A stretch of DNA of 24,340 nt from Candidatus Saccharimonadales bacterium (GCA_038199095.1 JBBPZG010000108.1:1-24340); one strand, 5' to 3'; positions 3,187-24,340 are shown, numbered from the stretch's first letter. The notes: generated by a model not told the origin, from the letters alone. Numbers and translations: made by a program.

Positions 3187-3274
3187 AGCCCGTAGCTCCT
3201 GGCCCGTAGCCGCTACAGTAAGTCTGCGCACCTGCGGTGCTCGGCTCCGAACTAGGAGCTACGGGCTACGAGCT
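3187..3274. repeat. GCCCGTAG-family hairpin element, copy 2
   Basis: Arms and loop (GCCGCT(G/A)CAGTAA...CACC.GCGGTGCTCGGCT) are shared with copy 1. Confidence 0.85.
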
Positions 3275-3294
3275 GGTTTTTCCGGAGGAAAAGC

Positions 3295-5100
3295 GTGAGC
3301 GTGTTGACAGCCACCAGCGGCCAGCAGCTCGAAGACGCGCTGGTTTCGGGCGGCATGCTGGGCGCCGACAAGCTGGCTGAAGCCAAGGCAGCTGCCGAAG
3401 CCCTGCATGAACCGATCATCAGTTATCTGGTCAAGAACAGCCTCATTAGTGACGAACAGCTCACCAAAGCCAATGCCGCGATTACCGGTATGCCGTATGT
3501 TAACCTGATGGCGGCCCGGATTGAACCCGAGATTCTCAAACTGTTACCGCAAGAAGTCGCCGAACGCTACATGGCGGTTCCGCTCGGCGAAATGCAGCAT
3601 AAGCTGGTGGTGGCCATGCTCGATGCCAATAATGTCCAGGCCGTCGACTTTTTGAGTAACCGTATTGCCCGGCCACTTAAAGTCTATGTAGCCAGCGAGG
3701 CCGGTATCCGCCAGATACTCAGGCAGTACAGCGCCCGGCTCGATGACCAGATGGAGGCCGCGCTCAAAAGTGTTGATAGCAATATGGCCCAGGAAGACAG
3801 CGATGCCAAGGACGGCAAATCGTCCAGGGGGCACAAAGATATCAAGACCATTGTCCAGGATTCGCCGATCAGCAAAGCGCTGTCGGCAATACTGGAGTTT
3901 GCTGCCCGCAACCGCGCCAGTGACGTGCACATAGAGCCGATGGAAAAGGTGCTGAAAGTGCGTTGCCGCGTCGACGGCGTACTGCGCGAGATCATGCGCC
4001 TGCCCAAAAGCACCGAGCCCGCCTTGATTTCCCGCGTGAAGATCTTATCGAATTTGAAGATTGACGAGCACCGGACTCCCCAGGACGGCAGTTTTACCGT
4101 CTTAGTCGATGGTAAGCCAATTGACCTGCGTATTGCCATCGCGCCGATCGTTTGGGGTGAGCAGGTGGTCATCCGGCTGCTCGACAAGACGGGCACCTCG
4201 CTGAAACTCGAGGATATGGGCTATGCCGGCCGGGCGCTGCGCACCATCCGCAAAGGCCTGGAGCGCCCCAATGGCATGATCCTGACCAGCGGCCCGACGG
4301 GTTCCGGTAAGTCGACCTCGCTCTACGCGCTTATCCAGGAAATTGTTAATGACACAATCAATATCGTCACCCTGGAAGACCCGGTCGAGTATAAGATGGA
4401 TGGCATCAACCAGATCCAGGTCAACCCGGAGGTCGGCCTGACCTTTGCAACGGGACTGCGCAGTATCCTGCGACAGGATCCCGACGTCGTGATGGTGGGG
4501 GAGATCCGCGACAAAGAGACTGCCCAACTAGCCGTGCAGGCTGCCCTGACGGGCCACTTGGTGTTTAGCACGCTGCATACCAACAGCGCCGCCGGCATCC
4601 TGCCGCGCCTGCTGAATATGGGTGTCGAGCCCTTCCTGATTGCCAGCACGGTGCACACCGTGATTGGCCAGCGCCTGGTCCGCCGGGTAGGCGCCACCAG
4701 CAAACAAACCTACCAGTCGACAGTTCCCGAAACCGCCGCTATCAAGGCTACACTGGGCACGTTACTGCCGGCAGATGCCGCCCATGCCGCAGCGGTCAGC
4801 CAGGACCTGGGTTATAATAACTTGCCCTTGGCTGGTGATACCGCTTATACTTTAACCAAGGGCGTAGATACGCCTGATGCGCCAAACGGCTTCCGGGGCC
4901 GTATGGGACTCTATGAAGTCTTTGAAATATCAGAGGCAATCCAGGCATTAATTATGAAACAATCAACTTCCAGCCAAATCGAACGCGCCGCCCAGGCAGA
5001 GGGCATGGTAACCATGCGCCAGGACGGCTACCTGAAGGCTCTGGAGGGCAAAACGACCTTGGCAGAAGTCAACCGCGTGGCGGCGGAGGACAACGCATGA
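3295..5100 (+). CDS. pilB: Type IV pilus extension ATPase PilB (GspE/PulE family)
   Basis: Walker A GPTGSGKST, TLEDPVEY, LRQDPDVVMVGEIRD, LHTNSA motifs; N-terminal MshEN-like region; GTG start with GGAGG at 3284-3288. Confidence 0.93.
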   Translation: MSVLTATSGQQLEDALVSGGMLGADKLAEAKAAAEALHEPIISYLVKNSLISDEQLTKANAAITGMPYVNLMAARIEPEILKLLPQEVAERYMAVPLGEMQHKLVVAMLDANNVQAVDFLSNRIARPLKVYVASEAGIRQILRQYSARLDDQMEAALKSVDSNMAQEDSDAKDGKSSRGHKDIKTIVQDSPISKALSAILEFAARNRASDVHIEPMEKVLKVRCRVDGVLREIMRLPKSTEPALISRVKILSNLKIDEHRTPQDGSFTVLVDGKPIDLRIAIAPIVWGEQVVIRLLDKTGTSLKLEDMGYAGRALRTIRKGLERPNGMILTSGPTGSGKSTSLYALIQEIVNDTINIVTLEDPVEYKMDGINQIQVNPEVGLTFATGLRSILRQDPDVVMVGEIRDKETAQLAVQAALTGHLVFSTLHTNSAAGILPRLLNMGVEPFLIASTVHTVIGQRLVRRVGATSKQTYQSTVPETAAIKATLGTLLPADAAHAAAVSQDLGYNNLPLAGDTAYTLTKGVDTPDAPNGFRGRMGLYEVFEISEAIQALIMKQSTSSQIERAAQAEGMVTMRQDGYLKALEGKTTLAEVNRVAAEDNA

Positions 5101-11684: not shown

Positions 11685-12428
11685 ATGAAAATCACCATAA
11701 AAAACTATAAACTTACACCAGCAAATGATCAGGGTTTCACGATTGTGGAGCTATTAATAGCCATGGCTATACTCTCCATCATCCTGGTGATGTCAACAGT
11801 GGTACTAATCCAGGTAGGCAACCTCTACAGCAAGGGCGTCAACGCAGCCAACTTGCAGAACGCCAGCCGCACAATCGCCGCCGACATCGCCTCTTCGCTC
11901 CAATTTAGCGGTGCTGCGCCGCAAATCTGTGCGGCACCGGCTCAAGACGACCCGACCTGTCCGAACCAATCAACCTCAAAGACTATCCAGGGTGATCCTC
12001 CCGGCTCGCCTCTCCCAATCTACAGTGTATGCATAGGCACCACGCGTTACAGCTATGCCCTAAATCGTGAGCTAGGCACCGATAGCGCCAATGGCTTCAT
12101 AACGCCGCACGTGCTGTGGCGCGACACGCTCAACAACAGCAACGACCTCTGTAGTCCGCTTGATCTAACACAGTCAACCCCAACCGACGGATCAAGCAAG
12201 GGCGACGGCTACGAGATGGCGCCGGCCCACACCAGATTAGGGCGGTTCAAGGTTACGCGCGTGGCCGGCACCAGCAACATCCATACTGTCGACGTCTGGA
12301 TGGATTATGGCGATAGCGACCTCTTAAATATAGCCACCGATGGTAGCGCGACTTGCCAGGGCGGCCAAGGCACGCAATTCTGTTCAACTTCACAAATTAG
12401 CACGACGCTCACAGGAAGGTTATACTAA
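11685..12428 (+). CDS. Minor pilin (PilW-like position)
   Basis: QG|FTIVELLIAMAILSIILV. Confidence 0.82.
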   Translation: MKITIKNYKLTPANDQGFTIVELLIAMAILSIILVMSTVVLIQVGNLYSKGVNAANLQNASRTIAADIASSLQFSGAAPQICAAPAQDDPTCPNQSTSKTIQGDPPGSPLPIYSVCIGTTRYSYALNRELGTDSANGFITPHVLWRDTLNNSNDLCSPLDLTQSTPTDGSSKGDGYEMAPAHTRLGRFKVTRVAGTSNIHTVDVWMDYGDSDLLNIATDGSATCQGGQGTQFCSTSQISTTLTGRLY

Positions 12429-12443
12429 AGTACAATAACGCTT

Positions 12444-13538
12444 ATGAAACGAAAAGTAGTTAGTTTAAGGAGTGACCAGCAGGGTTTTGCAGCCATAGTA
12501 ATCGCCATAGTTCTGGTGTTGGTGCTCAGCCTAATCACCGTCGGTTTTGCCAGCCTGATGCGCAAAGAACAGCGCCAGGCGCTCGACAAACAGCTCTCCA
12601 GCCAGGCTTACTACGCCGCCGAATCGGGTATTAATGATGCCGTCCAGGCATTGAGCAGCGGCTATACGGCAAACAAAATCACCTGCGGGCCTTACGCTGG
12701 CGCTGCTTTACCGCCGGGCTCTGCCTCCCTGAAGGATAATACCGTCGGCACTAACACCGGTGCCAGCTACCCCTGCCTGCTGATTAACCAGACTCCTCCC
12801 TCGTTGGAATACGGGTCTGTGGGCACTACCGTACCGAAAGTGGTTGAGCTGACGGCGGTGGGCCCCGACGGCGTCACCCATGTCCCCATAACATCGATTA
12901 AGGTTAGCTGGGAAGATACCGGCAGCAATACCAACTTTGTCCCCTCGAGCGTTAGCCCAAATTGCCAAAAATTCTTTCCCGCCGGTCCAGCGGCTAACCA
13001 GTGGAGCTATATAGGCCTGCTCAGATTCCAACTTATCCCGGTAGATCTGAAGAATCTCAACCGCGATAGTATCAATAACAGCGCCTACACTACTTTTATG
13101 TGCCCAAATGATGGCACTAACCGGTCTACGCCAGGTAGTGCTAGCTACGGTACGAATACTACCAATGGTGAGATTACTTTCGGCAACTGTAAAAATTCTA
13201 ATCCAGGCCAACCACAGGCCTGTAATGTTTCAATAGGTAGTCTACCTGCAGGCCAAGCCACCTACCTTGTCGACATGCGCTCCATTTACAACCCAACCAA
13301 AGTGACCCTAACCGTTTACGACGCCAGTGGCACCCAACTAAACATTAAGGATGCCCAGGCGCTGGTTGACTCCACCGGCAAGGCCCAGGATGTGCTGCGC
13401 CGTATCCAGGTACGTGTACCCTTGCACAACAACTACGATATCCCGGACGGCACCCACGGCAATGCCGCCATCTGCAAGCAGCTGGACTTAGTACCCTCAG
13501 GCACCCCTAACTTTACCTCTAATAGCCACTGCCAATAA
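12444..13538 (+). CDS. PilX/GspK-like minor pilin
   Basis: QG|FAAIVIAIVLVLV lacking E5, plus QAYYAAESGINDA motif typical of PilX N-termini. Confidence 0.78.
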   Translation: MKRKVVSLRSDQQGFAAIVIAIVLVLVLSLITVGFASLMRKEQRQALDKQLSSQAYYAAESGINDAVQALSSGYTANKITCGPYAGAALPPGSASLKDNTVGTNTGASYPCLLINQTPPSLEYGSVGTTVPKVVELTAVGPDGVTHVPITSIKVSWEDTGSNTNFVPSSVSPNCQKFFPAGPAANQWSYIGLLRFQLIPVDLKNLNRDSINNSAYTTFMCPNDGTNRSTPGSASYGTNTTNGEITFGNCKNSNPGQPQACNVSIGSLPAGQATYLVDMRSIYNPTKVTLTVYDASGTQLNIKDAQALVDSTGKAQDVLRRIQVRVPLHNNYDIPDGTHGNAAICKQLDLVPSGTPNFTSNSHCQ

Positions 13539-13761: not shown

Positions 13762-14670
13762 TTACTTGCGGTGGAACTTCTCGTGGACGGCGCGCAAGTG
13801 CGGGTCGGTCACATGGGTGTAGATCTGGGTGGTGGCGATGTTGCTGTGGCCGAGCATGGCCTGCACGCTCCTTAGGTCGGCGCCGTTCATCAGTAAGTCA
13901 GTTGCGAAGGAATGCCGTAGCGTGTGTGGGCTGACATGCTTGGTAATACCGGCCAGCAGGGCATAGCGCGCTACGATCCGCTGCACGCTGCGAACGGTCA
14001 GGCGGTGGAAGTTGCCCGATAAGTCGACTTGTTTGGTGCCGCTGTAGCGCACAAACAGGGGCTTGGACGTGTCTTGGCGCTTCTGCAAATAGTGCTCAAC
14101 CCATGTGGCGGCTTCGGCACTGATGAAAATCGGCCGGTCCTTCTGGCCCTTACCGCGCACCATAAACTCCCGGCGCTTGAGGTTAATGTGGTCGCGGTCC
14201 AGCCCGACCAATTCGCTTACCCGCAATCCCGAGCTAAATAGCAGTTCTAGGATGGCCCGGTCGCGCACGCCGCTCAGCGTACTAACATCTGGCTGCTCGA
14301 ATACCCGGGCTAGCTCATCTTCGTTTAGGAACGTAACCTGCTTGCGGCGGGTACGGGCCAGCTCAATCTTATCGGCTGGCAGGGCAGTGATGTCGCGCTT
14401 GGCGCAGTATTTCAGGAAACTGCGCAAGGCAATCAGGTGGTAGTTCTGGGTAGCTTTGCCAAGCTCGTCAGAGGTGTTGGTACCCAGCCGGTTGAGCCAG
14501 AGCCGCCACTTACGGATCAGCTCCACGTCCACATCGCTCACCTCAATATCGCCGGCAAAATCGACCAATCTTGTTAGATAATGGTCATAATTCTGGATAG
14601 TCTTCTGCGAGCGGTTCTGCTCAATCTCCAAATATTCCAAAAAATTTGTCTTGGCCCGTGCAAATAGCAT
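13762..14670 (-). CDS. Xer-family tyrosine recombinase
   Basis: Complete catalytic set: SGLRVSEL (R), GKGQK (K), PHTLRHSFAT (HxxR), LGH, TQIYTH (Y); N-terminal SAM-like domain; start at ATG 14670, with TACAAT 6 nt upstream. Confidence 0.92.
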   Translation of the reverse strand: MLFARAKTNFLEYLEIEQNRSQKTIQNYDHYLTRLVDFAGDIEVSDVDVELIRKWRLWLNRLGTNTSDELGKATQNYHLIALRSFLKYCAKRDITALPADKIELARTRRKQVTFLNEDELARVFEQPDVSTLSGVRDRAILELLFSSGLRVSELVGLDRDHINLKRREFMVRGKGQKDRPIFISAEAATWVEHYLQKRQDTSKPLFVRYSGTKQVDLSGNFHRLTVRSVQRIVARYALLAGITKHVSPHTLRHSFATDLLMNGADLRSVQAMLGHSNIATTQIYTHVTDPHLRAVHEKFHRK

Positions 14671-14700
14671 AAGTACATTGTACGACAACCAACTCAAAAC

Positions 14701-15208
14701 CGTCATCCCGGTCAGCCCTTGAACTTGTTTCAAGGCGCGTGACCGGAGGACCCCACCCACACCTCAGCAAAGACTTTCTCCTCCACGTCATCCCGGCACC
14801 CCGATCAAGTCGGGGCACAGGCTCCAGCCGGGACCCAGTCAACAGCACTGCGCAGCACTCCTCATGTCATCCTGAACTAGTTTCAGGACCCATACGAACA
14901 GGTAGTACGTTAGAGACATCACCCTGTCTTCATCCTCAAACCACACCTCTCTTCTCTCCCATTCTTTTTTGGTGGCAAAAAAGAACCAAAAAAGCCACCG
15001 CCTGGACTACTTAGGACTACTTACTACCGTAAGACGCTCCGCTCGTGTCTACACTAAGCTTCACTGAAGCTTAGTGGGTTCCCCAAGCGGCTACCCACTC
15101 TCATATTGCTTTTATTCACGCGGCTTACTGCTAAACAGCCTGCTGCTGTATATACGGGATCCCGGATCAAGCACCTTGAAGCAAGTTCAAGGGCTGTCCG
15201 GGACGACG
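14701..15208. repeat. Cluster of CGTCAT-headed palindromic repeats
   Basis: 14701-14754 is inverted-homologous to 15155-15208; further copies at 14786-14838 and 14866-14891. Confidence 0.8.
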
Positions 15209-15832: not shown

Positions 15833-16265
15833 ACGTCATCCTGAACTAGTTTCAGGACCCCGTTCACGCAGACACCGGCCCAAAAGCTTATAAATCACCA
15901 GCTAAATCCTTCAAGTTAGGATTGAGTTCCTTGATAAGGTTGAACTTCCATTCCCGGTGCCAATTCTTAAGTTGTTTTTCTCTGGCAATTGCGCTTTCGG
16001 CGGTGTCCCAAATTTCGTAATACAGCAACTTAGTCGCATTGTACGCATAAGTAAAGCCTTTAATGGAACCTTGCTGGTGCTGGTAAACTCTTTTAAGTAA
16101 GTCACTCGTTATACCTATATAAAGCACTCGGTTGTATTTGTTAGTCATTACATAGATGTAGAACTGGCGTAATTGCATCTAAACTACTGTATAGAAATAG
16201 TATTAACTTGTTATTAAGTCGCTGTAGATTGTATACGGGGTCCTGAAACTAGTTCAGGATGACGT
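15833..16265. mobile_element. GIY-YIG nuclease unit bounded by perfect 31-bp inverted repeats
   Basis: 15833-15863 ACGTCATCCTGAACTAGTTTCAGGACCCCGT is the exact reverse complement of 16235-16265. Confidence 0.6.
15888..16178 (-). CDS. GIY-YIG nuclease family protein
   Basis: YIYVM...LYIGITSDL.KR..QH, AIAREKQLKNW.R.WK..LI...NP pattern. Confidence 0.9.
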   Translation of the reverse strand: MQLRQFYIYVMTNKYNRVLYIGITSDLLKRVYQHQQGSIKGFTYAYNATKLLYYEIWDTAESAIAREKQLKNWHREWKFNLIKELNPNLKDLAGDL

Positions 16266-18386: not shown

Positions 18387-18463
18387 GGGCTCGTAGTGAA
18401 GAGGCCTATCACGCCTCCCTGTCACGGAGGAGATCGCCGGTTCGAATCCGGTCGGGCCCGCCA
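18387..18463 (+). tRNA. tRNA-Asp(GTC)
   Basis: Acceptor GGGCTCG/CGGGCCC, anticodon arm CCTCC-CT GTC AC-GGAGG, T arm GCCGG-TTCGAAT-CCGGT, G73 and CCA. Confidence 0.95.
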
Positions 18464-18465
18464 AA

Positions 18466-18494
18466 TTGACTTTGTATACTGTTTATGTTATTGT
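18466..18494 (+). promoter_or_regulatory. Cassette 1 promoter TTGACT-N17-TATTGT (TGn-extended)
   Basis: Begins 2 nt after the tRNA CCA; ATG 18501 lies 6 nt after the -10. Confidence 0.6.
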
Positions 18495-18500
18495 TAATTG

Positions 18501-18716
18501 ATGATTAATCAAGAACGCCCAGACGAACTAATCATATTGCCTGTTGATTTAGGTGATTTACAACAACCTGATTATTCGTCTACAACACCTCTATTAGAAT
18601 TAAAAGAAACCGAGGAAACCGCTGATAAAATAAATCTTCGTGAGGAAATAGTTAAATCTGAATTATCTCCACAAAACGTTATTGAAGCTCTAAAAAAAGC
18701 TTCCGGAAATAGCTAA
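18501..18716 (+). CDS. Cassette 1: small acidic hypothetical protein
   Basis: ORF with a correctly spaced promoter; no recognisable family. Confidence 0.55.
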   Translation: MINQERPDELIILPVDLGDLQQPDYSSTTPLLELKETEETADKINLREEIVKSELSPQNVIEALKKASGNS

Positions 18717-18760
18717 ACTGCGGTCATAATTAAGACATCTGTAACAGCATCTGATTTATT

Positions 18761-18800
18761 AAAATAGTTCCAGACCTCTTCCACTACGGCCCGCCAAGCA
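18761..18800 (+). repeat. Junction R1 (type A)
   Basis: AAAATAGTTCCAGAC-CTCTTCCA-CTACGGCCCGCCAAGCA. Confidence 0.92.
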
Positions 18801-18829
18801 TTGACATTACATACTACTTATGTTAATAT
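18801..18829 (+). promoter_or_regulatory. Cassette 2 promoter TTGACA-N17-TAATAT
   Basis: Consensus -35, TGn-extended -10, ATG 18836 6 nt downstream. Confidence 0.75.
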
Positions 18830-18835
18830 GCTGTT

Positions 18836-19195
18836 ATGACAAATCAAGATCCTTCTTTAGTTAATTCTGGTGAGCAGGCTTATACGGCAGAGCATTTTGT
18901 AGAACAGCTTCAAACACTTAACCCTAATGAACAATCTGATTTTTATAATGATTGGCTTGATAAAACAGTTCCAGGAAGACTCACAGCTAAAACTAGAGAA
19001 GCATCTGCGGCTGCTGCAAGCGGTAATTCTGATCTAGAACAAATACTAGTACTAGAAGCATATGCTGAACTGGAAGAGGCTCGAGATTATGCGCAGCGAG
19101 AAGCTACCAACGAGCTTACATCTCAAGAATTAGCTACAAAAGAAGCATTAGCCAGTATATTTCCAGATAAATGGCCGTTTGTAACAGCAAAATAG
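18836..19195 (+). CDS. Cassette 2: acidic helical hypothetical protein
   Basis: 119 aa; TAG stop lies inside R2. Confidence 0.72.
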   Translation: MTNQDPSLVNSGEQAYTAEHFVEQLQTLNPNEQSDFYNDWLDKTVPGRLTAKTREASAAAASGNSDLEQILVLEAYAELEEARDYAQREATNELTSQELATKEALASIFPDKWPFVTAK

Positions 19196-19229
19196 TTCCA
19201 GACATCCGTGGCTGCGGCCCGCCCCGACA
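19189..19229 (+). repeat. Junction R2 (type A)
   Basis: AAAATAGTTCCAGAC-ATCCGTGG-CTGCGGCCCGCCCCGACA. Confidence 0.9.
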
Positions 19230-19258
19230 TTGACAAAATACTATCTCTGTGATACTAT
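19230..19258 (+). promoter_or_regulatory. Cassette 3 promoter TTGACA-N17-TACTAT
   Basis: Consensus -35, TGn-extended -10, ATG 19265 6 nt downstream. Confidence 0.75.
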
Positions 19259-19264
19259 CTTTTT

Positions 19265-19783
19265 ATGTCTATACAAACAGAAACTGTAAATATTAGACAG
19301 GCCACCGAAGACGATCAACAGTTTATTAATCAAATGTGCTACGAAGCTGGCTTCCCTGACGGGATGGATGATCGACTTACGTTTGAAGCTGCCCAGCAAA
19401 TAGACTGGGTACCGCTCTATCAAGAAGAATGGGGAAAACGCGAAGGCGACTTTGGCCTTATCGCTGAAAAAGACGGAAAACCCCTCGGAGCAGCTTGGTA
19501 CCGTGACTATTCTGCACTAATTACTAATGAGAACACGCCAAAGCACGAATTGAGCATCGCCCTCTTACCGGAAGCCCGGGGTCATAAAATAGGTAGCGAA
19601 CTTATGACAAAACTGCTTGAGGGAGCTTCTGAGCAAGGTATTGAGGATATAAGTCTGGTAGTAAGAGAGTCTAACGCAGTAGCTAAGAACATGTATCAAA
19701 AGATAGGTTTCTTAACCATACATGAGTCTGATGATGGCTATATAACGATGGCCGCATCAACTTCTTCTGCCGACCCAAAATAG
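19265..19783 (+). CDS. Cassette 3: GNAT family N-acetyltransferase
   Basis: IRQATEDD start, LSIALLPEARGHKIGSELM (motif A), SNAVAKNMYQKIGF (motif B); TAG stop inside R3. Confidence 0.9.
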   Translation: MSIQTETVNIRQATEDDQQFINQMCYEAGFPDGMDDRLTFEAAQQIDWVPLYQEEWGKREGDFGLIAEKDGKPLGAAWYRDYSALITNENTPKHELSIALLPEARGHKIGSELMTKLLEGASEQGIEDISLVVRESNAVAKNMYQKIGFLTIHESDDGYITMAASTSSADPK

Positions 19784-19826
19784 TTCCAGCCCTGGAAGGC
19801 TACGGCCCGCCAAGCATAAGCACTTT
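19777..19826 (+). repeat. Junction R3 (type A)
   Basis: AAAATAGTTCCAGCC-CTGGAAGG-CTACGGCCCGCCAAGCATAAGCACTTT. Confidence 0.92.
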
Positions 19827-19850
19827 TATTAAAGTAGTTTTATGTTTATC

Positions 19851-19879
19851 TTGCATAATTATGCAATAAAAGTTATCTT
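19851..19879 (+). promoter_or_regulatory. Cassette 4 promoter TTGCAT-N17-TATCTT with overlapping 16-bp palindrome
   Basis: TTGCATAATTATGCAA at 19851-19866; ATG 19886 6 nt after the -10. Confidence 0.6.
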
Positions 19880-19885
19880 TGAATT

Positions 19886-20281
19886 ATGAGCGACGGTGTA
19901 TCTCCAGAAACTCTTAATACAGATGGTCATCGGCAAAGAGCAGAGGAGTTTGTATTATCTAAACCATTGCTAAGAGGCTTGGGCGAAATAGCCCAAAACC
20001 CGGGTGTCTATCGCCTTACTTGGATGCTTGATGAAGTTGACCAGGTAGTATCGGATCACAGTATTGGCCATCCACCCTTTGCTCGTTGGTGTAATATTGG
20101 CTTTACACATGACCCAATGAAAAGAATTATTGAAGGCTCTATGCTTAAAAGGGTAATGGCAGTAATTGGTACAAAACAAGCAGACGGTGTAGATCTTGAA
20201 CTTGTTTTTACAACTCCAACAGATTGGCAAGGCTACTTAGCAGAATACGATAGACTAGGCGAGTTAGACCAGGCAGCCTAG
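19886..20281 (+). CDS. Cassette 4: hypothetical protein
   Basis: 131 aa; ends in TAG within a TAGTTC remnant. Confidence 0.72.
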   Translation: MSDGVSPETLNTDGHRQRAEEFVLSKPLLRGLGEIAQNPGVYRLTWMLDEVDQVVSDHSIGHPPFARWCNIGFTHDPMKRIIEGSMLKRVMAVIGTKQADGVDLELVFTTPTDWQGYLAEYDRLGELDQAA

Positions 20282-20334
20282 TTCATTTTTGCTCATGGTT
20301 GCAAGTGACGCAAATCTAGCTAAAATAGTTTTTT

Positions 20335-20522
20335 ATGAGTGAAGAATATCCGGACTATATAGTAAGTAGAGACGAGAACATATTGCTGATACAAGAGGTA
20401 TTGATTCCGGAGATGTGGTTATAGGTAGGGAAGAGCTAAGAAACCTAGGTTCAGTTGGTTTTCTTGGATCCAGATGGAATTCTTCTTGGCAACCTAGTGG
20501 CGGCAACCCAGACCTTAACTAG
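20335..20522 (+). pseudogene. Possible frameshifted small cassette gene
   Basis: TTGCAA-N16-TAAAAT promoter, then ATG 20335 opens 29 codons; a second frame from about 20382 stays open to TAG 20522, just before R4. Confidence 0.35.
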
Positions 20523-20535
20523 TACTAACTGATCG

Positions 20536-20580
20536 CTGTTCTAAAATCCGACTCGATGTCCCGCCAAGCATAAGCACTTT
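20536..20580 (+). repeat. Junction R4 (type B)
   Basis: CTGTTCTAAAATCCGACTCGATGTCCCGCCAAGCATAAGCACTTT. Confidence 0.9.
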
Positions 20581-20613
20581 CTGCAAGGAGGTAGCTTTCG
20601 TTTTTGCTCATGC

Positions 20614-20641
20614 TTGCATTTACTTGTTTAAAAGATAAGAT
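20614..20641 (+). promoter_or_regulatory. Cassette 5 promoter TTGCAT-N16-TAAGAT
   Basis: ATG 20648 6 nt after the -10. Confidence 0.55.
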
Positions 20642-20647
20642 AAATCT

Positions 20648-21529
20648 ATGTCAGAACAATCTAGTGGTTTACAAACTGGTGAAATTATTGCCGACGCGAC
20701 ACGTGCTCAGCATGGTGATGATATCGCTGCTCGCATTTCCAAACTAGTTGAATACGGTCCATTACGTATCGTTACTCATGTACCCGATATCCCCGGAGTA
20801 GAATATCGGAAACCTTATCGCCGAGACGCTGATCAGCAAACATTTGCCAGCATAGGTTCTACGGCTTTATCGGTATTGTCCGATGAATCCGGAGTTAAAG
20901 TTGCAGTTCATAGTAAAGATCAAAAAGAGCCTTTTATACTGCTGCCTGAGCAAGTTGAAAATGTGTACGTTGATCATCCTCATAGTTCCGATATGCCACT
21001 CAGAGGTCAAAGTATGATGGCGATAAGTCTTACAAAACGTGATGGAGTATCTGTCCTACGCTGGCCAAATCACGTAATTGAATTCGGTTACCGTGATAGG
21101 ATTGATACAGAAAATCATCCGGATTATCCAGGGATTAGTATTGTAAGAGCCTATAAGGCCGATGATGGTGATATATGGGCCAGCTTAAAAGAGCGTAAGA
21201 TCGCAAGTCTAGAAGACGCAAAACAAGCAGACGATCAACCGAGAACATTTCTTATCACAAAAATAGATGATGAAAACTACGTAGTTACTTCCCGCATTGG
21301 ATACGAAGAAACTACACCAGTAACGGTTCGTCGTCCAAAACATCCAGGTAATGAACCTTTGCTACATATAGAGATGCTAGACATGAATAAAGATACAAGT
21401 GATGAAGAGCTTTTAGAGAATCATCTTAAACGATACCGTAATTTAAGCCAAAGATATCTTGACTCACCAAGACGGTCAATGAAGCCATTTGAGCTAGACA
21501 GCGTTTTCCTCTATATGGTGCATGATTGA
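20648..21529 (+). CDS. Cassette 5: hypothetical protein
   Basis: 293-aa ORF, no recognised family. Confidence 0.8.
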   Translation: MSEQSSGLQTGEIIADATRAQHGDDIAARISKLVEYGPLRIVTHVPDIPGVEYRKPYRRDADQQTFASIGSTALSVLSDESGVKVAVHSKDQKEPFILLPEQVENVYVDHPHSSDMPLRGQSMMAISLTKRDGVSVLRWPNHVIEFGYRDRIDTENHPDYPGISIVRAYKADDGDIWASLKERKIASLEDAKQADDQPRTFLITKIDDENYVVTSRIGYEETTPVTVRRPKHPGNEPLLHIEMLDMNKDTSDEELLENHLKRYRNLSQRYLDSPRRSMKPFELDSVFLYMVHD

Positions 21530-21580
21530 GCAGTGGGCTTATACAGATAGTAATACAAGACTTTCATTTGTACATTGAGT

Positions 21581-21616
21581 AATATAGTTCCAGACTTTTT
21601 CCGATATGGCCCGCCA
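21581..21616 (+). repeat. Junction R5 (type A)
   Basis: AATATAGTTCCAGAC-TTTTTCCG-ATATGGCCCGCCA. Confidence 0.88.
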
Positions 21617-21632
21617 TACAGCTTATGCTTAA

Positions 21633-21641
21633 TGATATACT
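21633..21641 (+). promoter_or_regulatory. Cassette 6 extended -10 TGa-TATACT
   Basis: ATG 21648 6 nt downstream. Confidence 0.55.
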
Positions 21642-21647
21642 TGTTGC

Positions 21648-21914
21648 ATGCCCCAACATTGGCAAGATTTAGTACTTTCAACTTGTATTCTCGGCTTTAA
21701 CCTAGCGTTAATTCCTACGCTCTTAAGTAAAAAACATAATCCACACGCTGGCACGGGGATTACGACGGCTACATTTCAACTAGTAGCATTTACTGTTTAT
21801 ACAAGTCTGCATTTATGGTATTCAGCGGCGATGGGTTTATTAAATGCAATTTTATGGGCAGTCATAGTGGTTCAAGGTCTGTCCACCCAAAAGCGCCCTC
21901 AACGTAAGCGATAG
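21648..21914 (+). CDS. Cassette 6: small ~3-TM membrane protein
   Basis: Three hydrophobic segments; TAG stop inside R6. Confidence 0.75.
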   Translation: MPQHWQDLVLSTCILGFNLALIPTLLSKKHNPHAGTGITTATFQLVAFTVYTSLHLWYSAAMGLLNAILWAVIVVQGLSTQKRPQRKR

Positions 21915-21949
21915 TTCTGAGGTCTGACTCGATGCCCCGCCTTAAGCAT
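21912..21949 (+). repeat. Junction R6 (type B, diverged)
   Basis: TAGTTCTGAGGTCTGACTCGATGCCCCGCCTTAAGCAT; GTTC-N18-CCCGCC. Confidence 0.8.
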
Positions 21950-21990
21950 TGGCTGCTCATACTGTCTACATTGTTCTTATTGAGCTCATC

Positions 21991-22025
21991 AAATAGTTCC
22001 GGATCCCTAACGTTAAGGCTCGCTA
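21991..22025 (+). repeat. Junction R7 (type A, degenerate)
   Basis: AAATAGTTCCGGAT-CCCTAACG-TTAAGGCTCGCTA; GTTC-N19-CTCGCT. Confidence 0.65.
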
Positions 22026-22147
22026 ACGAGTTCTTATAGCATTAACTTTGCAACACTAGGACAACTAGGCCAAGCAGACATTGGTTAACTTATCACACGT
22101 TGGTTTGAGGTAGGCAACATAATTACGCCAGTGGAGATAAGCTTTTT

Positions 22148-22156
22148 TGCTAATAT
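22148..22156 (+). promoter_or_regulatory. Cassette 8 extended -10 TGc-TAATAT
   Basis: ATG 22163 6 nt downstream. Confidence 0.55.
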
Positions 22157-22162
22157 GAAGTC

Positions 22163-23014
22163 ATGCCTAATGCTTTTATTCCGATGCTTGCTGCTTTTGC
22201 GTGTGCTCTCTGTAATGGTACGGCAGCCGTACTACAGAAAATAAGTGCTGATAAAGAGAAGAATGTGACGTCATTGGACGCTCGATTATTATGGCGGCTT
22301 TTTCAAGATATGTCGTATGTCAGTGGCATTGGATTGGATGTTCTTGGCTGGATATTAACCCTATATGCTGTACACTACCTACCACTATTTTTAGTAGAAG
22401 CAATTATCGCAGCTAACATTGTGATTACGGCATTAATTGAGCGACTGTTTAGACACCAAGAAATAAATCGTTGGTCATACTTTGCAATTATCATTATCTT
22501 AGTGGGGCTTATCTTAGTGGCGATCGCCTCATCGGCCGGGAGATCTGAGCCCATAAGTAACGTAGTTAGGTGGATTATAATTTTTTCACCACTCCCCCTA
22601 GGCATTGCTGGTTATATCTTAGCTCGGCTTAAAAGTTATCGATCTACAGTAGGCTTAGCTATTCTCAGCGGTTTAGCATTTGGCGATACTTCAGTAATAG
22701 GTAGGATTTTCAGTGTTTCACATCCACTTTGGCACACTTTCTATAATCCACTTATTTACTCATTACTGGTTAGTGGATCCCTTGGCGTCTTGCTTTTTTC
22801 GACTGCTCTGCAACGTGCACAAGCTACTGTGATGAATGCTACCATGACTGCCAGCCAAATTTTAATTCCAGCAGTGGTCGGTATCGCATTTTTGGGTGAT
22901 AATGCTCGCAATGGTCTCTGGTATTTAGTAGTTCTGGGTTGCTCTCTGTCACTTGGAGGAGTAATTGTGTTAGCTTTTACGAATTATAAAAGTAATGTTC
23001 AGTTGAGAGTTTAA
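22163..23014 (+). CDS. Cassette 8: DMT-superfamily (EamA/NIPA-like) membrane transporter
   Basis: About 9 TM helices in two repeats; N-terminal A..NG.AAVLQK and PLFLVEAI pattern typical of this DMT subgroup. Confidence 0.75.
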   Translation: MPNAFIPMLAAFACALCNGTAAVLQKISADKEKNVTSLDARLLWRLFQDMSYVSGIGLDVLGWILTLYAVHYLPLFLVEAIIAANIVITALIERLFRHQEINRWSYFAIIIILVGLILVAIASSAGRSEPISNVVRWIIIFSPLPLGIAGYILARLKSYRSTVGLAILSGLAFGDTSVIGRIFSVSHPLWHTFYNPLIYSLLVSGSLGVLLFSTALQRAQATVMNATMTASQILIPAVVGIAFLGDNARNGLWYLVVLGCSLSLGGVIVLAFTNYKSNVQLRV

Positions 23015-23269
23015 GCTCAGTCTATCTACAAACTATGCAACGGGCGTTTCGCTCATTAGCTGCTCGTTAATATTTATTGTTAAATACACGTAAATTTTGT
23101 ACTGTCTAGCTAATTGTTATCAGTTTAACTTTAAACAGTCACCTAGTAAACCAGAAGTATAGCCAGGTGGCACTAACTAGTTTCGACAAAAAAGCTTTTG
23201 ACCTACACATCTACTTTCTTCCAAGCAATAGTGATTAGGAAAACACCGCACGCTATAATTATGTAGTAA

Positions 23270-23314
23270 CAGTTCGAAAATCCGACTCTATGTCCCGCCA
23301 AGCATAAGCACTTT
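23270..23314 (+). repeat. Junction R8 (type B)
   Basis: CAGTTCGAAAATCCGACTCTATGTCCCGCCAAGCATAAGCACTTT. Confidence 0.92.
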
Positions 23315-23325
23315 CTTACAATACA

Positions 23326-23649
23326 ATGCGGGTGTACTCTCTTATTATGTCAATGAACAGAGAAGACTTAGGAGCATCACTTGAGAGCTGGCAGCAATCT
23401 GCTAGCCATGACCGCAAGCAATTCCTCGCAAGCTTTGCAATATCTGGTATGGGGCTACTGGTATGTGGTGAGGGTATTGGGACAATCGCAAACGGAGCAT
23501 TAGTGCCGGGTGTAATTGAGATTATTTTAGGTGGGGGTCTGACAACGTTATTCGCTAGAAACGGATTAAATGAAGTCGAAAGCTATGCAGAAACGGAAAG
23601 AACAGTAGCTTTCAAACAGTATCAATTAGATGAGCTAGATGCCAACTAG
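23326..23649 (+). CDS. Cassette 9: 2-TM hypothetical membrane protein
   Basis: Two Gly-rich hydrophobic helices; start may be 23347 or 23353; stop 4 nt before R9. Confidence 0.7.
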   Translation: MRVYSLIMSMNREDLGASLESWQQSASHDRKQFLASFAISGMGLLVCGEGIGTIANGALVPGVIEIILGGGLTTLFARNGLNEVESYAETERTVAFKQYQLDELDAN

Positions 23650-23653
23650 TTGC

Positions 23654-23703
23654 AAAATAGTTCCAGATATTCAAAGCTACGGCCCGCCAAGCATAAGCAC
23701 TTT
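23654..23703 (+). repeat. Junction R9 (type A)
   Basis: AAAATAGTTCCAGAT-ATTCAAAG-CTACGGCCCGCCAAGCATAAGCACTTT. Confidence 0.92.
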
Positions 23704-23756
23704 AGCAGAGCAAGTGAAATTATTCGAGAACGAAAACAGATAAAAGGAGTAGAGAA

Positions 23757-24065
23757 TTACTCTGTCTCTGGGTCAGATAAATCAATTTCTTCAACGAGTT
23801 GACGTTCAGCACAGCTCTTAAGGATAGCGATGGCCATCTTCATCCCGCCAGCTACAAGATGGGCATCTCTTTCAGGAGTACCGTAACCCTCTAAGATGTC
23901 TTGTGCGGCATCTACAATTCCAGCTAATGCCGTGTAGTCTGAGTCGATGGTACGGTCAATAGCAGTCGCTTCTTCAGGCTCAAATAGAGTAACTGTTATC
24001 ACGTCAGCAAAAGCTTTGCCAACGACATCCTCATCAAGATTTTCTAACTCCTCATGTAAAGTCAT
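23757..24065 (-). CDS. Cassette 10: acidic hypothetical protein, inverted orientation
   Basis: ORF on the minus strand; ATG 24065 is preceded by TTGATA-N16-TATTAT (24101-24074). Confidence 0.7.
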   Translation of the reverse strand: MTLHEELENLDEDVVGKAFADVITVTLFEPEEATAIDRTIDSDYTALAGIVDAAQDILEGYGTPERDAHLVAGGMKMAIAILKSCAERQLVEEIDLSDPETE

Positions 24066-24118
24066 AATTGTATATAATAACAGAGGTCTAATATTTATCA
24101 ACTAACCCTCGTGTGATA

Positions 24119-24150
24119 CTGTTCGAAAATCCGACTCTATAGCCCGCCAA
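24119..24150 (+). repeat. Junction R10 (type B)
   Basis: CTGTTCGAAAATCCGACTCTATAGCCCGCCAA. Confidence 0.9.
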
Positions 24151-24200
24151 GAGACTATACTCTTAAATCATAAAGTAAATTGTATTTTATAGGGTATTTA

Positions 24201-24334
24201 CCCGAATCACGAAACTCTACCCCAACGCATCGTCATCTCGAGCTAAGCCGAGAGATCTCGTTACCTCTGATGATATACTACGAGACTCCTCGGCTTCGCT
24301 CGGAATGACAGTGGTGGGAGTTTCGTGATTCGGG
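24201..24334. repeat. CGTC-type REP doublet inside a 17-bp perfect inverted repeat
   Basis: CCCGAATCACGAAACTC (24201-24217) / GAGTTTCGTGATTCGGG (24318-24334); inner CGTCATCTCGAGCTAAGCCGAGAGATCTC and inverted GAGACTCCTCGGCTTCGCTCGGAATGAC. Confidence 0.82.
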
Positions 24335-24340
24335 TCCCAC

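What the first reader, a model, noticed from the sequence alone, without database searches (positions are those of the whole stretch)
18761..23703. Type A junctions: two conserved arms around a fully variable 8-bp centre
Seen: R1, R2, R3, R5, R7 and R9 align as AAAATAGTTCCAGAC-N8-CTACGGCCCGCCAAGCAT. The N8 segments are CTCTTCCA, ATCCGTGG, CTGGAAGG, TTTTTCCG, CCCTAACG and ATTCAAAG, all different. Established: fixed arms around a variable 6-8 bp centre typify tyrosine recombinase sites (loxP, dif/pdif, Tn916 coupling sequences). Inference: N8 is either the strand-exchange region, recording a different partner per cassette, or a non-contacted spacer between two protein-binding boxes. In R3 alone the centre makes a hairpin (TAG-TTCCAG-CC-CTGGAA-GG-CTA) with a 2-nt bulge, faintly like attC.
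Basis: partly seen in the sequence, partly recalled or inferred. Interest (0 to 1): 0.72.

Follow-up and report, generated by a model that had tools for sequence, protein, structure and literature searches.

The report
Serine-recombinase scars between tRNA-Asp gene cassettes
The repeated "type A junctions" are real recombination-site remnants that separate small imported genes stacked behind the tRNA-Asp gene of a Saccharibacteria genome. They most likely are the docking half-site, and the cut-off coding end, of a large serine recombinase rather than a tyrosine-recombinase site with a variable crossover centre.

Summary
The six junctions exist as described, and the same fixed-length element recurs in 77 of 310 genomes of the family (Candidatus Saccharibacteria), nearly always just downstream of tRNA-Asp(GTC).

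- **What is conserved.** The conserved unit is 36 bp: AAAATAGTTCCAGAC, then N8, then CTAC-GGCCCGCCA. Its last 9 bases copy the tRNA-Asp 3' end.
- **The centre.** It is not fully variable. N8 position 2 is T and position 8 is G in about 85% of copies; only 4-5 bases are free.
- **Structure.** There is no hairpin and no dyad symmetry.
- **The recombinase.** In 13 related genomes a large serine recombinase gene sits at tRNA-Asp on the opposite strand and reads across the CCA end in one fixed frame. In that same frame type A encodes W-R-A-V-A-x-E-V-W-N-Y-F, with conservative and synonymous variation.
- **Which side N8 follows.** N8 follows the upstream element: 10-14 of 14 centre bases are identical where the recombinases are at least 70% identical. 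The downstream DNA differs in those pairs.

So N8 is not the crossover, which must lie in GGCCCGCCA. It is a loosely constrained stretch between two recognition blocks. This window holds no matching recombinase, so its cassettes are relics or are moved by an enzyme encoded elsewhere.

The scan has noted such Saccharibacteria arrays before on other DNA. I found no paper describing them.

The parts
18387..18463 (+). tRNA-Asp(GTC), the anchor of the array. Its last 9 bases, GGCCCGCCA, are the shared core of all type A junctions.
   Evidence: ARAGORN and Rfam. Synteny with other genera ends exactly at its CCA.
18464..18487 (-). Head of cassette 1. On the minus strand it reads HKQYTKSI just before the W-R-A of the tRNA complement. 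It is probably a relic of the 3' coding end of a serine recombinase gene (the right arm of its element-borne site) and overlaps a promoter-like site.
   Evidence: tblastn to the recombinase of G107, residues 522-542, 76% over 21 aa, E 2.7e-5; 13 of those aa come from the tRNA complement. HK at the same offset occurs in 13 recombinase-less heads. Promoter-like TTGACT-17-TATTGT at 18466-18494.
18761..18796 (+). Type A junction R1. N8 = 18776-18783, CTCTTCCA. The minus strand reads WRAVVEEVWNYF.
19189..19224 (+). Type A junction R2. N8 = ATCCGTGG. The core is degenerate, GGCCCGCCC.
19777..19812 (+). Type A junction R3. N8 = CTGGAAGG. It is the only copy with a TTCCAG/CTGGAA stem.
21581..21616 (+). 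Type A junction R5. N8 = TTTTTCCG. ATAT replaces CTAC.
21990..22025 (+). Type A junction R7. N8 = CCCTAACG. It is the most decayed copy (core GGCTCGCTA) and lies only 47 nt after type B junction B2, so the unit between them is empty.
23654..23689 (+). Type A junction R9. N8 = ATTCAAAG.
20536..20566 (+). Type B junction B1, 31 nt, closer to the tRNA T-arm. It shares only CCCGCCA with the tRNA.
21912..21942 (+). Type B junction B2, degenerate.
23270..23300 (+). Type B junction B3.
24119..24149 (+). Type B junction B4, the last junction before the contig end.
18464..24149 (+). Low-GC cassette array, about 41% GC against about 53% upstream. Its ORFs are 18498-18716, 18836-19195, 19265-19783 (GNAT), 19886-20281, 20648-21529, 21648-21914, 22163-23014 (EamA-like), 23326-23649 and 23757-24101 (minus strand).
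   Evidence: Cassette statistics over 118 units are.
13762..14760 (-). Xer-type tyrosine recombinase, 3.6 kb upstream. It is syntenic in other genera and is judged not to be the cassette recombinase.

Best explanation
Each type A junction is the distal scar of an element that a tRNA-Asp-specific large serine recombinase inserted at the 3' end of the tRNA-Asp gene. In att-site terms it is an attR-type site: the left arm of the element-borne site (attP) plus the shared core.

**What is shown.**
- In relatives the recombinase gene lies next to the tRNA on the opposite strand.
- Its last 13 codons are supplied by the complement of the tRNA 3' end.
- The type A junction at the far end of the same element continues that same frame from the same TGG codon, as W-R-A-V-A-x-E-V-W-N-Y-F.

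Type A is therefore the coding end that the gene would have on the excised circle, cut off by integration.

**What is inferred.**
- The crossover lies inside the 7-9 bases shared with the tRNA (GGCCCGCCA).
- The right block (CTAC plus core) and the left block (AGTTCCAGA, a displaced copy of the tRNA T-loop GGTTCGAA) are the inner and outer recognition motifs of one recombinase subunit.
- N8 is the loosely constrained linker between them, and at the same time codons 5-7 of the tail.
- Repeated insertion at the same tRNA, followed by loss of recombinase genes or carriage of neighbouring units, stacks recombinase-less single-gene cassettes like those in this window.
For: 1. **A recombinase at tRNA-Asp in relatives.** All 13 Asp-type recombinase genes in 13 genomes lie convergent on tRNA-Asp. 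They carry Resolvase and Recombinase domains. Each has an open frame of 253-530 aa running across the CCA at codon phase 0; twelve end WRARPD(S/L)NRRS(P/S)P and one stops right after WRA.
2. **A coding signature on the minus strand.** In that frame the 107-109 type A junctions give W R A [VLI] [ATV] x [EQD] [VI] W N Y [FY]. This frame has the highest synonymous fraction (0.36 against 0.11-0.33 in the others). It is the only one of six frames with a positive mean BLOSUM62 score for replacements (+0.27 against -0.44 to -1.63). The predicted wobble column is the least conserved in 7 of 9 degenerate codons.
3. **Recombinase elements end in type A.** Every recombinase-bearing element that could be followed (11 of 13) ends in a type A junction 2.3-7.2 kb downstream.
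4. **N8 follows the upstream element.** The 14-nt centre follows the recombinase: 10-14 of 14 identical in the 7 pairs with at least 70% recombinase identity, drawn from 4 separate clades, against a background of 6.8 +/- 2.7. The DNA after CCA differs in every such pair.
5. **Cassettes assort independently at the junction.** 38 junction pairs are homologous upstream only and 28 downstream only. None is truly homologous on both sides. Downstream homology starts at +1 to +3 after CCA.
6. **Geometry fits a serine integrase.** The GTTC motif lies 24 nt from the CCA end in the tRNA, 29 in type B and 30 in type A. Other tRNA families in this genome show the same 5-6 bp outward shift. Serine integrase attP half-sites carry the zinc-ribbon motif 5 bp further out than attB half-sites (PMC3783163).
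7. **Decay intermediates exist.** C-terminal recombinase fragments remain at tRNA-Asp in five genomes. One of them, G257, is an internally deleted copy of the G107 element with an identical junction.
8. **A published precedent.** In the Dehalococcoides ssrA islands the serine recombinase gene dsiB always overlaps attL at its 3' end. Tandem islands there are bounded by repeats of the target's 3' end, with an extra motif that does not align with the target (PMC3146451).
Against: - No Asp-type serine recombinase is in this genome's assembly, which is 89.5% complete. Its three such genes sit at tRNA-Gln, tRNA-Ser and tRNA-Pro and are only about 29-31% identical to the Asp type.
- Most junction-positive genomes, roughly 65 of 77, also lack an Asp-type gene.
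- The right-hand side of the sites is not conserved, and no dyad symmetry between half-sites is visible, unlike canonical serine integrase sites.
- Known serine integrases do not recombine attP with attL, so serial stacking needs a tolerance for variable right arms that has not been shown.
- No excision circle or empty site was seen; the read-laying gave nothing decisive.
- Part of the alignment was gathered with patterns that fix some arm positions. The measured arm conservation, and to a lesser degree the codon signature, is therefore partly ascertained.
- Type A shifts the motif by 6 bp, not the canonical 5.
Confidence: 0.74

Rival explanations
1. The junction is a tyrosine-recombinase site of the lox, dif, pdif or Tn916 kind. 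The two arms bind recombinase monomers, such as the Xer-type enzyme at 13762-14760, and N8 is the overlap where strands are exchanged.
For: A Xer-type gene lies 3.6 kb upstream, faces away from the array, and keeps this neighbourhood in several genera. The centre has a fixed length of 8.
Against: - The arms are not inverted repeats (4 of 13 matches).
- N8 differs between all copies and is absent from the tRNA target, so it cannot supply the matching overlap that strand exchange needs.
- The Xer gene scores as XerC/XerD/XerA-type and falls far below the integron-integrase cut-off (134.6 against 265 bits).
- It is the only full tyrosine recombinase in several genomes, so it is presumably the housekeeping one. 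In G056 it lies on a different contig from the junctions.
- N8 co-varies with a serine recombinase instead.
Confidence: 0.04
2. The junction is an integron-type attC site that works as a folded single strand. R3 would show the ancestral hairpin.
For: - The cassette architecture and cargo look integron-like: the median unit is 756 bp, with one ORF on the array strand in 111 of 117 units.
- Cargo includes PIN toxins, RelB and GNAT genes.
- R3 has a 5-6 bp stem.
Against: - RNAalifold finds no pair in 107 junctions.
- The R3 stem is paired in 48% of cells, no better than shuffles (184 of 500).
- All 12 single-strand folds are no better than shuffles.
- There is no IntI gene.
- There are no R''/R' core sites.
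Confidence: 0.02
3. The junction works at the RNA level or in expression. It could be a 3'-end element of each cassette transcript (stop codon plus a tRNA-like CCA tail for processing or stability), and cassettes would be shuffled only by homologous recombination after DNA uptake.
For: - Cassette stop codons cluster in the junction: 21 units use its TAG and 10 use a TGA 5 nt before it.
- Promoter-like sites follow the CCA of the tRNA, R1 and R2.
- The genome encodes type IV pilus and competence-type genes.
Against: - There is no conserved secondary structure or tRNA-like fold.
- The pattern of variation is that of a protein-coding frame on the opposite strand.
- The two conserved blocks of 13-15 bp are short for RecA-driven exchange.
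- The element is physically the end of recombinase-bearing units.
Confidence: 0.08
4. The junctions are only inert, decaying duplicates of the tRNA-Asp 3' end left by unrelated integrative elements. They have no present function and no common enzyme.
For: - R2, R5 and R7 are degenerate.
- Many arrays have no recombinase.
- Partial tRNA copies from serial integration are known from tycheposon islands.
Against: - Type A is not a decayed tRNA end. It is a distinct 36-bp consensus kept across 52 genera, while the cassette genes themselves are not conserved at the DNA level.
- Its spacing is fixed.
- It is tied to one recombinase clade.
Confidence: 0.1

Closest known systems
Dehalococcoides ssrA-specific genomic islands with the CcrB-like serine recombinase DsiB (McMurdie et al. 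2011, PMC3146451; read)
   Same: - Tandem units accumulate downstream of a tRNA-like gene.
- Each unit is bounded by a direct repeat of that gene's 3' end.
- An extra conserved motif next to the repeat does not align with the target gene.
- The recombinase gene is on the reverse strand beside attL and always overlaps attL or the target gene with its 3' end.
- Some units lack the integration module.
   Different: - The target here is tRNA-Asp, and other tRNAs in the same genome, rather than ssrA.
- The shared core is 7-9 bp rather than 20 bp.
- The inferred crossover is at the acceptor/CCA end, not in the T-loop.
- Units are mostly single genes of about 0.75 kb rather than islands of several kb.
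- I did not look for a second small recombinase of the DsiA type.
- The cut-off coding end is itself strongly conserved as a peptide.
Large serine integrase attP/attB systems (A118/LI, Bxb1, phiC31; Rutherford et al. 2013, PMC3783163; read)
   Same: - The enzyme has Resolvase and Recombinase domains and is 506-542 aa long.
- Each half-site has an inner and an outer recognition block joined by a tolerant linker.
- The outer motif lies about 5 bp further from the crossover in the element-borne site than in the host site.
   Different: - Only the left half-sites are conserved.
- The recombinase gene straddles its own site.
- Repeated insertion at an already occupied site is implied.
- The central dinucleotide has not been mapped.
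Integrons and integrase-less attC clusters (CALINs)
   Same: - A one-directional row of small, mostly single-ORF cassettes is separated by a family of conserved sites and anchored at one fixed position.
- The cargo is rich in toxin-antitoxin genes, acetyltransferases and unknowns.
   Different: - There is no IntI.
- There is no folding attC.
- There is no GTTRRRY core.
- The anchor is a tRNA 3' end.
- The first cassettes appear to carry their own promoters.
- The associated enzyme is a serine recombinase, not a tyrosine recombinase.
Tycheposons and other tRNA-anchored tandem islands (Prochlorococcus; bioRxiv 10.1101/2020.12.28.424599; read)
   Same: - Serial integration at a tRNA gene pushes older elements outward.
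- Partial tRNA copies are left between the elements.
- Degenerate remnants accumulate.
   Different: - Tycheposon repeats are plain copies of the tRNA segment.
- Tycheposon units are larger.
- Here the repeat is a distinct, displaced mimic of the tRNA end, and the units are single genes.

Membership tests
Large serine recombinase attachment sites | A recombinase with Resolvase and Recombinase domains is encoded next to the site. | tested here: inconclusive
   Met in 13 related genomes, where the gene abuts tRNA-Asp. Not met in this window or, for the Asp type, in this assembly.
Large serine recombinase attachment sites | Element site and host site share a short core that holds the crossover dinucleotide. 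| tested here: met
   The tRNA-Asp end and type A share GGCCCGCCA; type B shares CCCGCCA. Flank homology breaks at this block. The dinucleotide itself is not mapped.
Large serine recombinase attachment sites | The outer (zinc-ribbon) motif lies about 5 bp further from the centre in attP than in attB. | tested here: met
   GTTC is 24 nt from the CCA end in the tRNA, 29 in type B and 30 in type A. Shifts of 5-6 bp also hold for the tRNA-Lys, tRNA-Arg and C14-type junctions (rule). That GTTC is the zinc-ribbon motif is an inference.
Large serine recombinase attachment sites | The two half-sites show imperfect dyad symmetry. | tested here: not met
   The sequence to the right of CCA carries less than 0.4 bit per position. 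Only 13 of 173 recombinase-less heads keep a recombinase-tail-like right arm.
Large serine recombinase attachment sites | Recombination between the sites has been demonstrated. | not testable with these tools
   Public contigs gave no clean excision or circle joints.
ssrA-GI / SCC-type tandem islands | The recombinase gene overlaps attL, and so the target gene, with its 3' end. | tested here: met
   13 of 13 genes read through the tRNA-Asp CCA at phase 0.
ssrA-GI / SCC-type tandem islands | Tandem units are bounded by direct repeats of the target's 3' end. | tested here: met
   Ten junctions in the window, and 1-5 per genome in 77 genomes.
ssrA-GI / SCC-type tandem islands | A second small serine recombinase (DsiA or CcrA type) is present in the module. 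| not tested
   I did not look for one.
Integron (IntI, attI, attC) | An IntI integrase is adjacent to the array. | tested here: not met
   The nearest tyrosine recombinase scores 134.6 bits against a 265-bit cut-off for TIGR02249 and matches the Xer models better.
Integron (IntI, attI, attC) | The sites are attC sites: imperfect palindromes that fold as single strands. | tested here: not met
Tyrosine-recombinase core sites (lox, dif, pdif) | Inverted-repeat arms flank a 6-8 bp overlap that is identical in both partners. | tested here: not met
   4 of 13 arm positions are symmetric (consensus). N8 differs in all six copies and is absent from the tRNA.

The most novel reading that the evidence does not exclude
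Saccharibacteria carry a working gene-capture platform that functions like an integron but runs on large serine recombinases. Families of these enzymes would each use the universal tRNA T-loop plus one tRNA's acceptor end as the landing site. They would straddle their own attachment site, so that the enzyme's C-terminus switches between the integrated and excised states. They would also move recombinase-less single-gene cassettes, which need only the 36-bp left arm, either in trans or together with neighbouring units.
Probability: 0.35. Interest if true: 0.85.

Novelty: new variant of a known kind. Interest (0 to 1): 0.68.

Why it matters
Saccharibacteria are ultra-small, host-dependent bacteria whose routes of gene gain are poorly understood. 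Here their accessory genes (toxin-antitoxin pairs, acetyltransferases, transporters and many unknowns) sit in cassette rows behind tRNA genes in about a quarter of the genomes of one family.

Identifying the junction as a serine-recombinase half-site gives three concrete things:
- a candidate enzyme and a testable site;
- an explanation for why the sites look like displaced tRNA ends;
- a set of compact, tRNA-directed serine integrases with readable recognition rules, which are of interest as genome-engineering tools.

It also shows that a 'variable centre between fixed arms' need not be a crossover region.

Tried and rejected
- **Hairpin or attC idea.** Rejected.
- **Direct travel test.** I tested whether N8 follows the upstream or the downstream gene among recombinase-less cassettes. 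Homologues were only 65-80% identical. N8 identity (about 7.3 of 14) was indistinguishable from the background of 6.8, so the test had no power. Pairing junctions with their recombinases gave the answer instead.
- **Exact-protein look-ups.** Two cassette proteins returned only one contig, with the same gene order.
- **Public runs.** Laying contigs of 4 runs gave only short, ambiguous joints, with 21-38 letters on the shorter side. A second-study strain (X2) covers cassettes 3-7 but not 1-2 or the last two. That may reflect presence/absence variation or only assembly gaps.
- **Viral contigs.** Both junction types gave 0 hits.
- **A dif-like site.** A quick search for one to compare with the junction found nothing convincing, and I dropped it.
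- **Promoters.** Promoter-like sites are not enriched overall in the array (12 against 14.3 in shuffles). Only the three sites right after the first three CCA ends stand out.
- **Literature.** Searches for Saccharibacteria with gene cassettes, integron, genomic island or serine recombinase found no description of these arrays.

Full report
**Setting.** The window is a whole 24.3-kb contig of a 1.0-Mb, 166-contig genome. Record titles of related contigs identify the group as Candidatus Saccharibacteria / Saccharimonadales. A conserved block holds type IV pilus genes, a Xer-type recombinase, ndk, tRNA-Arg, a SurA-like gene and tRNA-Asp(GTC) at 18387-18463. From the base after the tRNA's CCA to the contig end, GC falls from about 53% to about 41%. 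That stretch holds nine short ORFs separated by two repeat families, type A and type B.

**Observation.** The element is not a local oddity.
- TAGTTCCAG-N10-16-GGCCCGCCA occurs in 23 of 200 other genomes of the family, with no hits to the reversed control. The gap is 14 in 32 of 33 sites.
- A looser pattern finds it in 77 of 310 genomes in 52 of 102 genera.
- Outside Saccharibacteria it occurs only at about the chance rate.
- A BLAST of the whole array against the family recovers almost only the junctions. The cassette genes are not conserved at the DNA level.

In 12 of 17 loci fetched with 10-kb flanks the junctions lie 0.6-5 kb downstream of tRNA-Asp on the same strand. Cross-genus synteny stops exactly at the tRNA's CCA.

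**Anatomy.**
- An alignment of 107 junctions has no gaps (A1).
- Information content is high for AAAA-TAGTTCCAGAC, low for N8 positions 4-7, and intermediate for positions 1 and 3.
- It is high again for N8 position 2 (T) and position 8 (G), for CTAC and for GGCCCGCCA. It drops to noise immediately after CCA.
It belongs to AAGCATAAGC, a motif with 22 exact copies in this genome against 1.9 expected. Its reverse complement overlaps -35 regions.
- The last 17 bases of the common 'TCCG' class of type A match the last 17 of tRNA-Asp at 14 positions. Type B and a fragment in locus L040 are intermediates.

So the junction is a displaced mimic of the tRNA from T-loop to CCA.

**No fold, no dyad.** RNAalifold predicts no pair. 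The R3 stem tested on all junctions pairs in 48% of cells, as in shuffles. None of the six junctions folds better than shuffles on either strand. The two arms are not inverted repeats.

**Cassettes.**
- 118 non-redundant units have a median length of 756 bp. In 111 of 117 the longest ORF is on the array strand, and stop codons cluster at the junction's TAG.
- Cargo is PIN toxins (15), RelB, GNAT, NUDIX, HAD, EamA and mostly unknowns. No recombinase is among the 25 commonest of the 38 Pfam families matched.
- Units assort independently: 38 junction pairs share only the upstream unit and 28 only the downstream unit. None truly shares both. Downstream homology begins at +1 to +3 after CCA.

**The enzyme.** Earlier notes of this scan on other Saccharibacteria genomes suggested that such junctions are cut-off ends of large serine recombinase genes. 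I tested this for tRNA-Asp.
- The three serine recombinase genes of this genome each converge on a tRNA gene: Gln, Ser and Pro.
- In relatives, a distinct clade of 506-542-aa recombinases with Resolvase and Recombinase domains sits directly after tRNA-Asp on the opposite strand. This holds in 13 genomes.
- In all 13 the frame crosses the CCA at codon phase 0; twelve end WRARPD(S/L)NRRS(P/S)P and one stops right after WRA, and these last codons are encoded by the tRNA complement.
- Read in that frame, type A encodes W-R-A-[VLI]-[ATV]-x-[EQD]-[VI]-W-N-Y-[FY].
- This frame alone shows conservative replacements, with a mean BLOSUM62 score of +0.27 against -0.44 to -1.63 in the other five. It also has the highest synonymous fraction.
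- Examples: the G076 and G060 junctions differ at two bases and both read WRALTEAIWN. The G237 and G110 junctions likewise both read WRAVALEVWN.

**Which side does N8 travel with?** Eleven recombinase-bearing elements end in a type A junction 2.3-7.2 kb downstream.
- Where two recombinases are at least 70% identical (7 pairs from 4 separate clades), the 14-nt centre is 10-14 of 14 identical. The background is 6.8 +/- 2.7.
- The DNA after CCA is unrelated in every such pair.
- G257 carries an internally deleted copy of the G107 element with an identical junction but a different downstream neighbour.

N8 is thus inherited with the upstream element. The crossover lies to its right, within the block shared with the tRNA.

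**Why two boxes and a spacer (inference).** In the LI integrase-attP structure each half-site has three parts: an inner region bound by the recombinase domain, a linker, and a 9-bp outer motif bound by the zinc-ribbon domain. In attB that outer motif sits 5 bp closer to the centre (PMC3783163).
- Here GTTC lies 24 nt from the CCA end in the tRNA, 29 in type B and 30 in type A.
- The junction families at tRNA-Lys, at tRNA-Arg(CCG) and on contig C14 show the same 5-6 bp shift.
- With the centre placed about 5 nt inside the CCA end, N8 falls at about positions 9-16. That is the outer recombinase-domain and linker zone.

**This window.** No Asp-type recombinase is present here. The head of cassette 1 (18464-18487) still reads HKQYTKSI before WRA, like the LHK..R.S. 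tail of the recombinases. Thirteen other recombinase-less heads keep HK at the same offset. I read the window's array as a stack of relics or of units carried along with neighbours, as proposed for the Dehalococcoides ssrA islands. There too the recombinase gene overlaps attL, and some tandem units lack an integration module (PMC3146451).

**Limits.**
- No recombination event was observed.
- The right arms are not conserved.
- How occupied sites are re-used is unknown.
- Part of the alignment was pattern-selected.

**Novelty.** I found no paper describing this in Saccharibacteria. The scan itself has reported such arrays at several tRNAs in at least 71 genomes.

Noticed in passing
window 24200-24335: A 136-bp palindromic element with 18-nt perfectly complementary ends. 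The last 141 bp of the window are identical to the end of contig C15. Copies at 70-91% identity occur in at least 15 other genomes of the family. It looks like a small mobile inverted-repeat element and probably broke the assembly here.
   Followed up: partly
window 19812-19821, 20566-20575, 23300-23309, 23689-23698 and genome-wide: The motif AAGCATAAGC (reverse complement GCTTATGCTT, often followed by GCA) has 22 exact copies in the 1.0-Mb genome against 1.9 expected, mostly between genes. It abuts the CCA of junctions of several tRNA families in either orientation, and its reverse form overlaps -35-like hexamers. Its function is unknown.
   Followed up: partly
own genome contigs C49 (tRNA-Lys-ttt, 3232-3308), C70 (tRNA-Lys-ctt), C28 (tRNA-Arg-ccg, 12417-12493), C14 and C65: Further cassette junction families end in a mimic of their own tRNA's 3' end (GGCCCTCCA, GGGCTGTACCA, GGGGAGCCA). 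Each has a GTT motif 5-6 bp further from CCA than in the tRNA.
   Followed up: partly
own genome contigs C103 (2601-3890), C117 (2185-3558) and C118: Three large serine recombinase genes each converge on a tRNA gene: Gln-ttg, Ser-gct and Pro-ggg.
   Followed up: partly
window 21912-22025: Type B junction B2 is followed after only 47 nt by the decayed type A junction R7. This is an empty unit, as if a cassette had been lost between two sites.
   Followed up: no
window 15833-15863 and 16235-16265: A perfect 31-nt inverted repeat encloses a 96-aa minus-strand ORF (15888-16178) just upstream of tRNA-Arg.
   Followed up: no
locus L040 8735-10028 (G015:C2): A two-cassette block (a HAD hydrolase and an unknown 197-aa protein) lies away from any tRNA, directly after a pilin-like operon. 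It has a type B and a type A junction and starts at a fragment that copies the tRNA-Asp T-arm and 3' end. It may be a translocated piece of an array or a secondary landing site.
   Followed up: partly
window 18470-19204 and 23370-24104: Contigs of a rock-metagenome run from another study cover cassettes 3-7 at about 97% identity, but not the first two or the last two cassettes. This could be strain-level gain or loss of cassettes, or only assembly gaps at the repeats.
   Followed up: no
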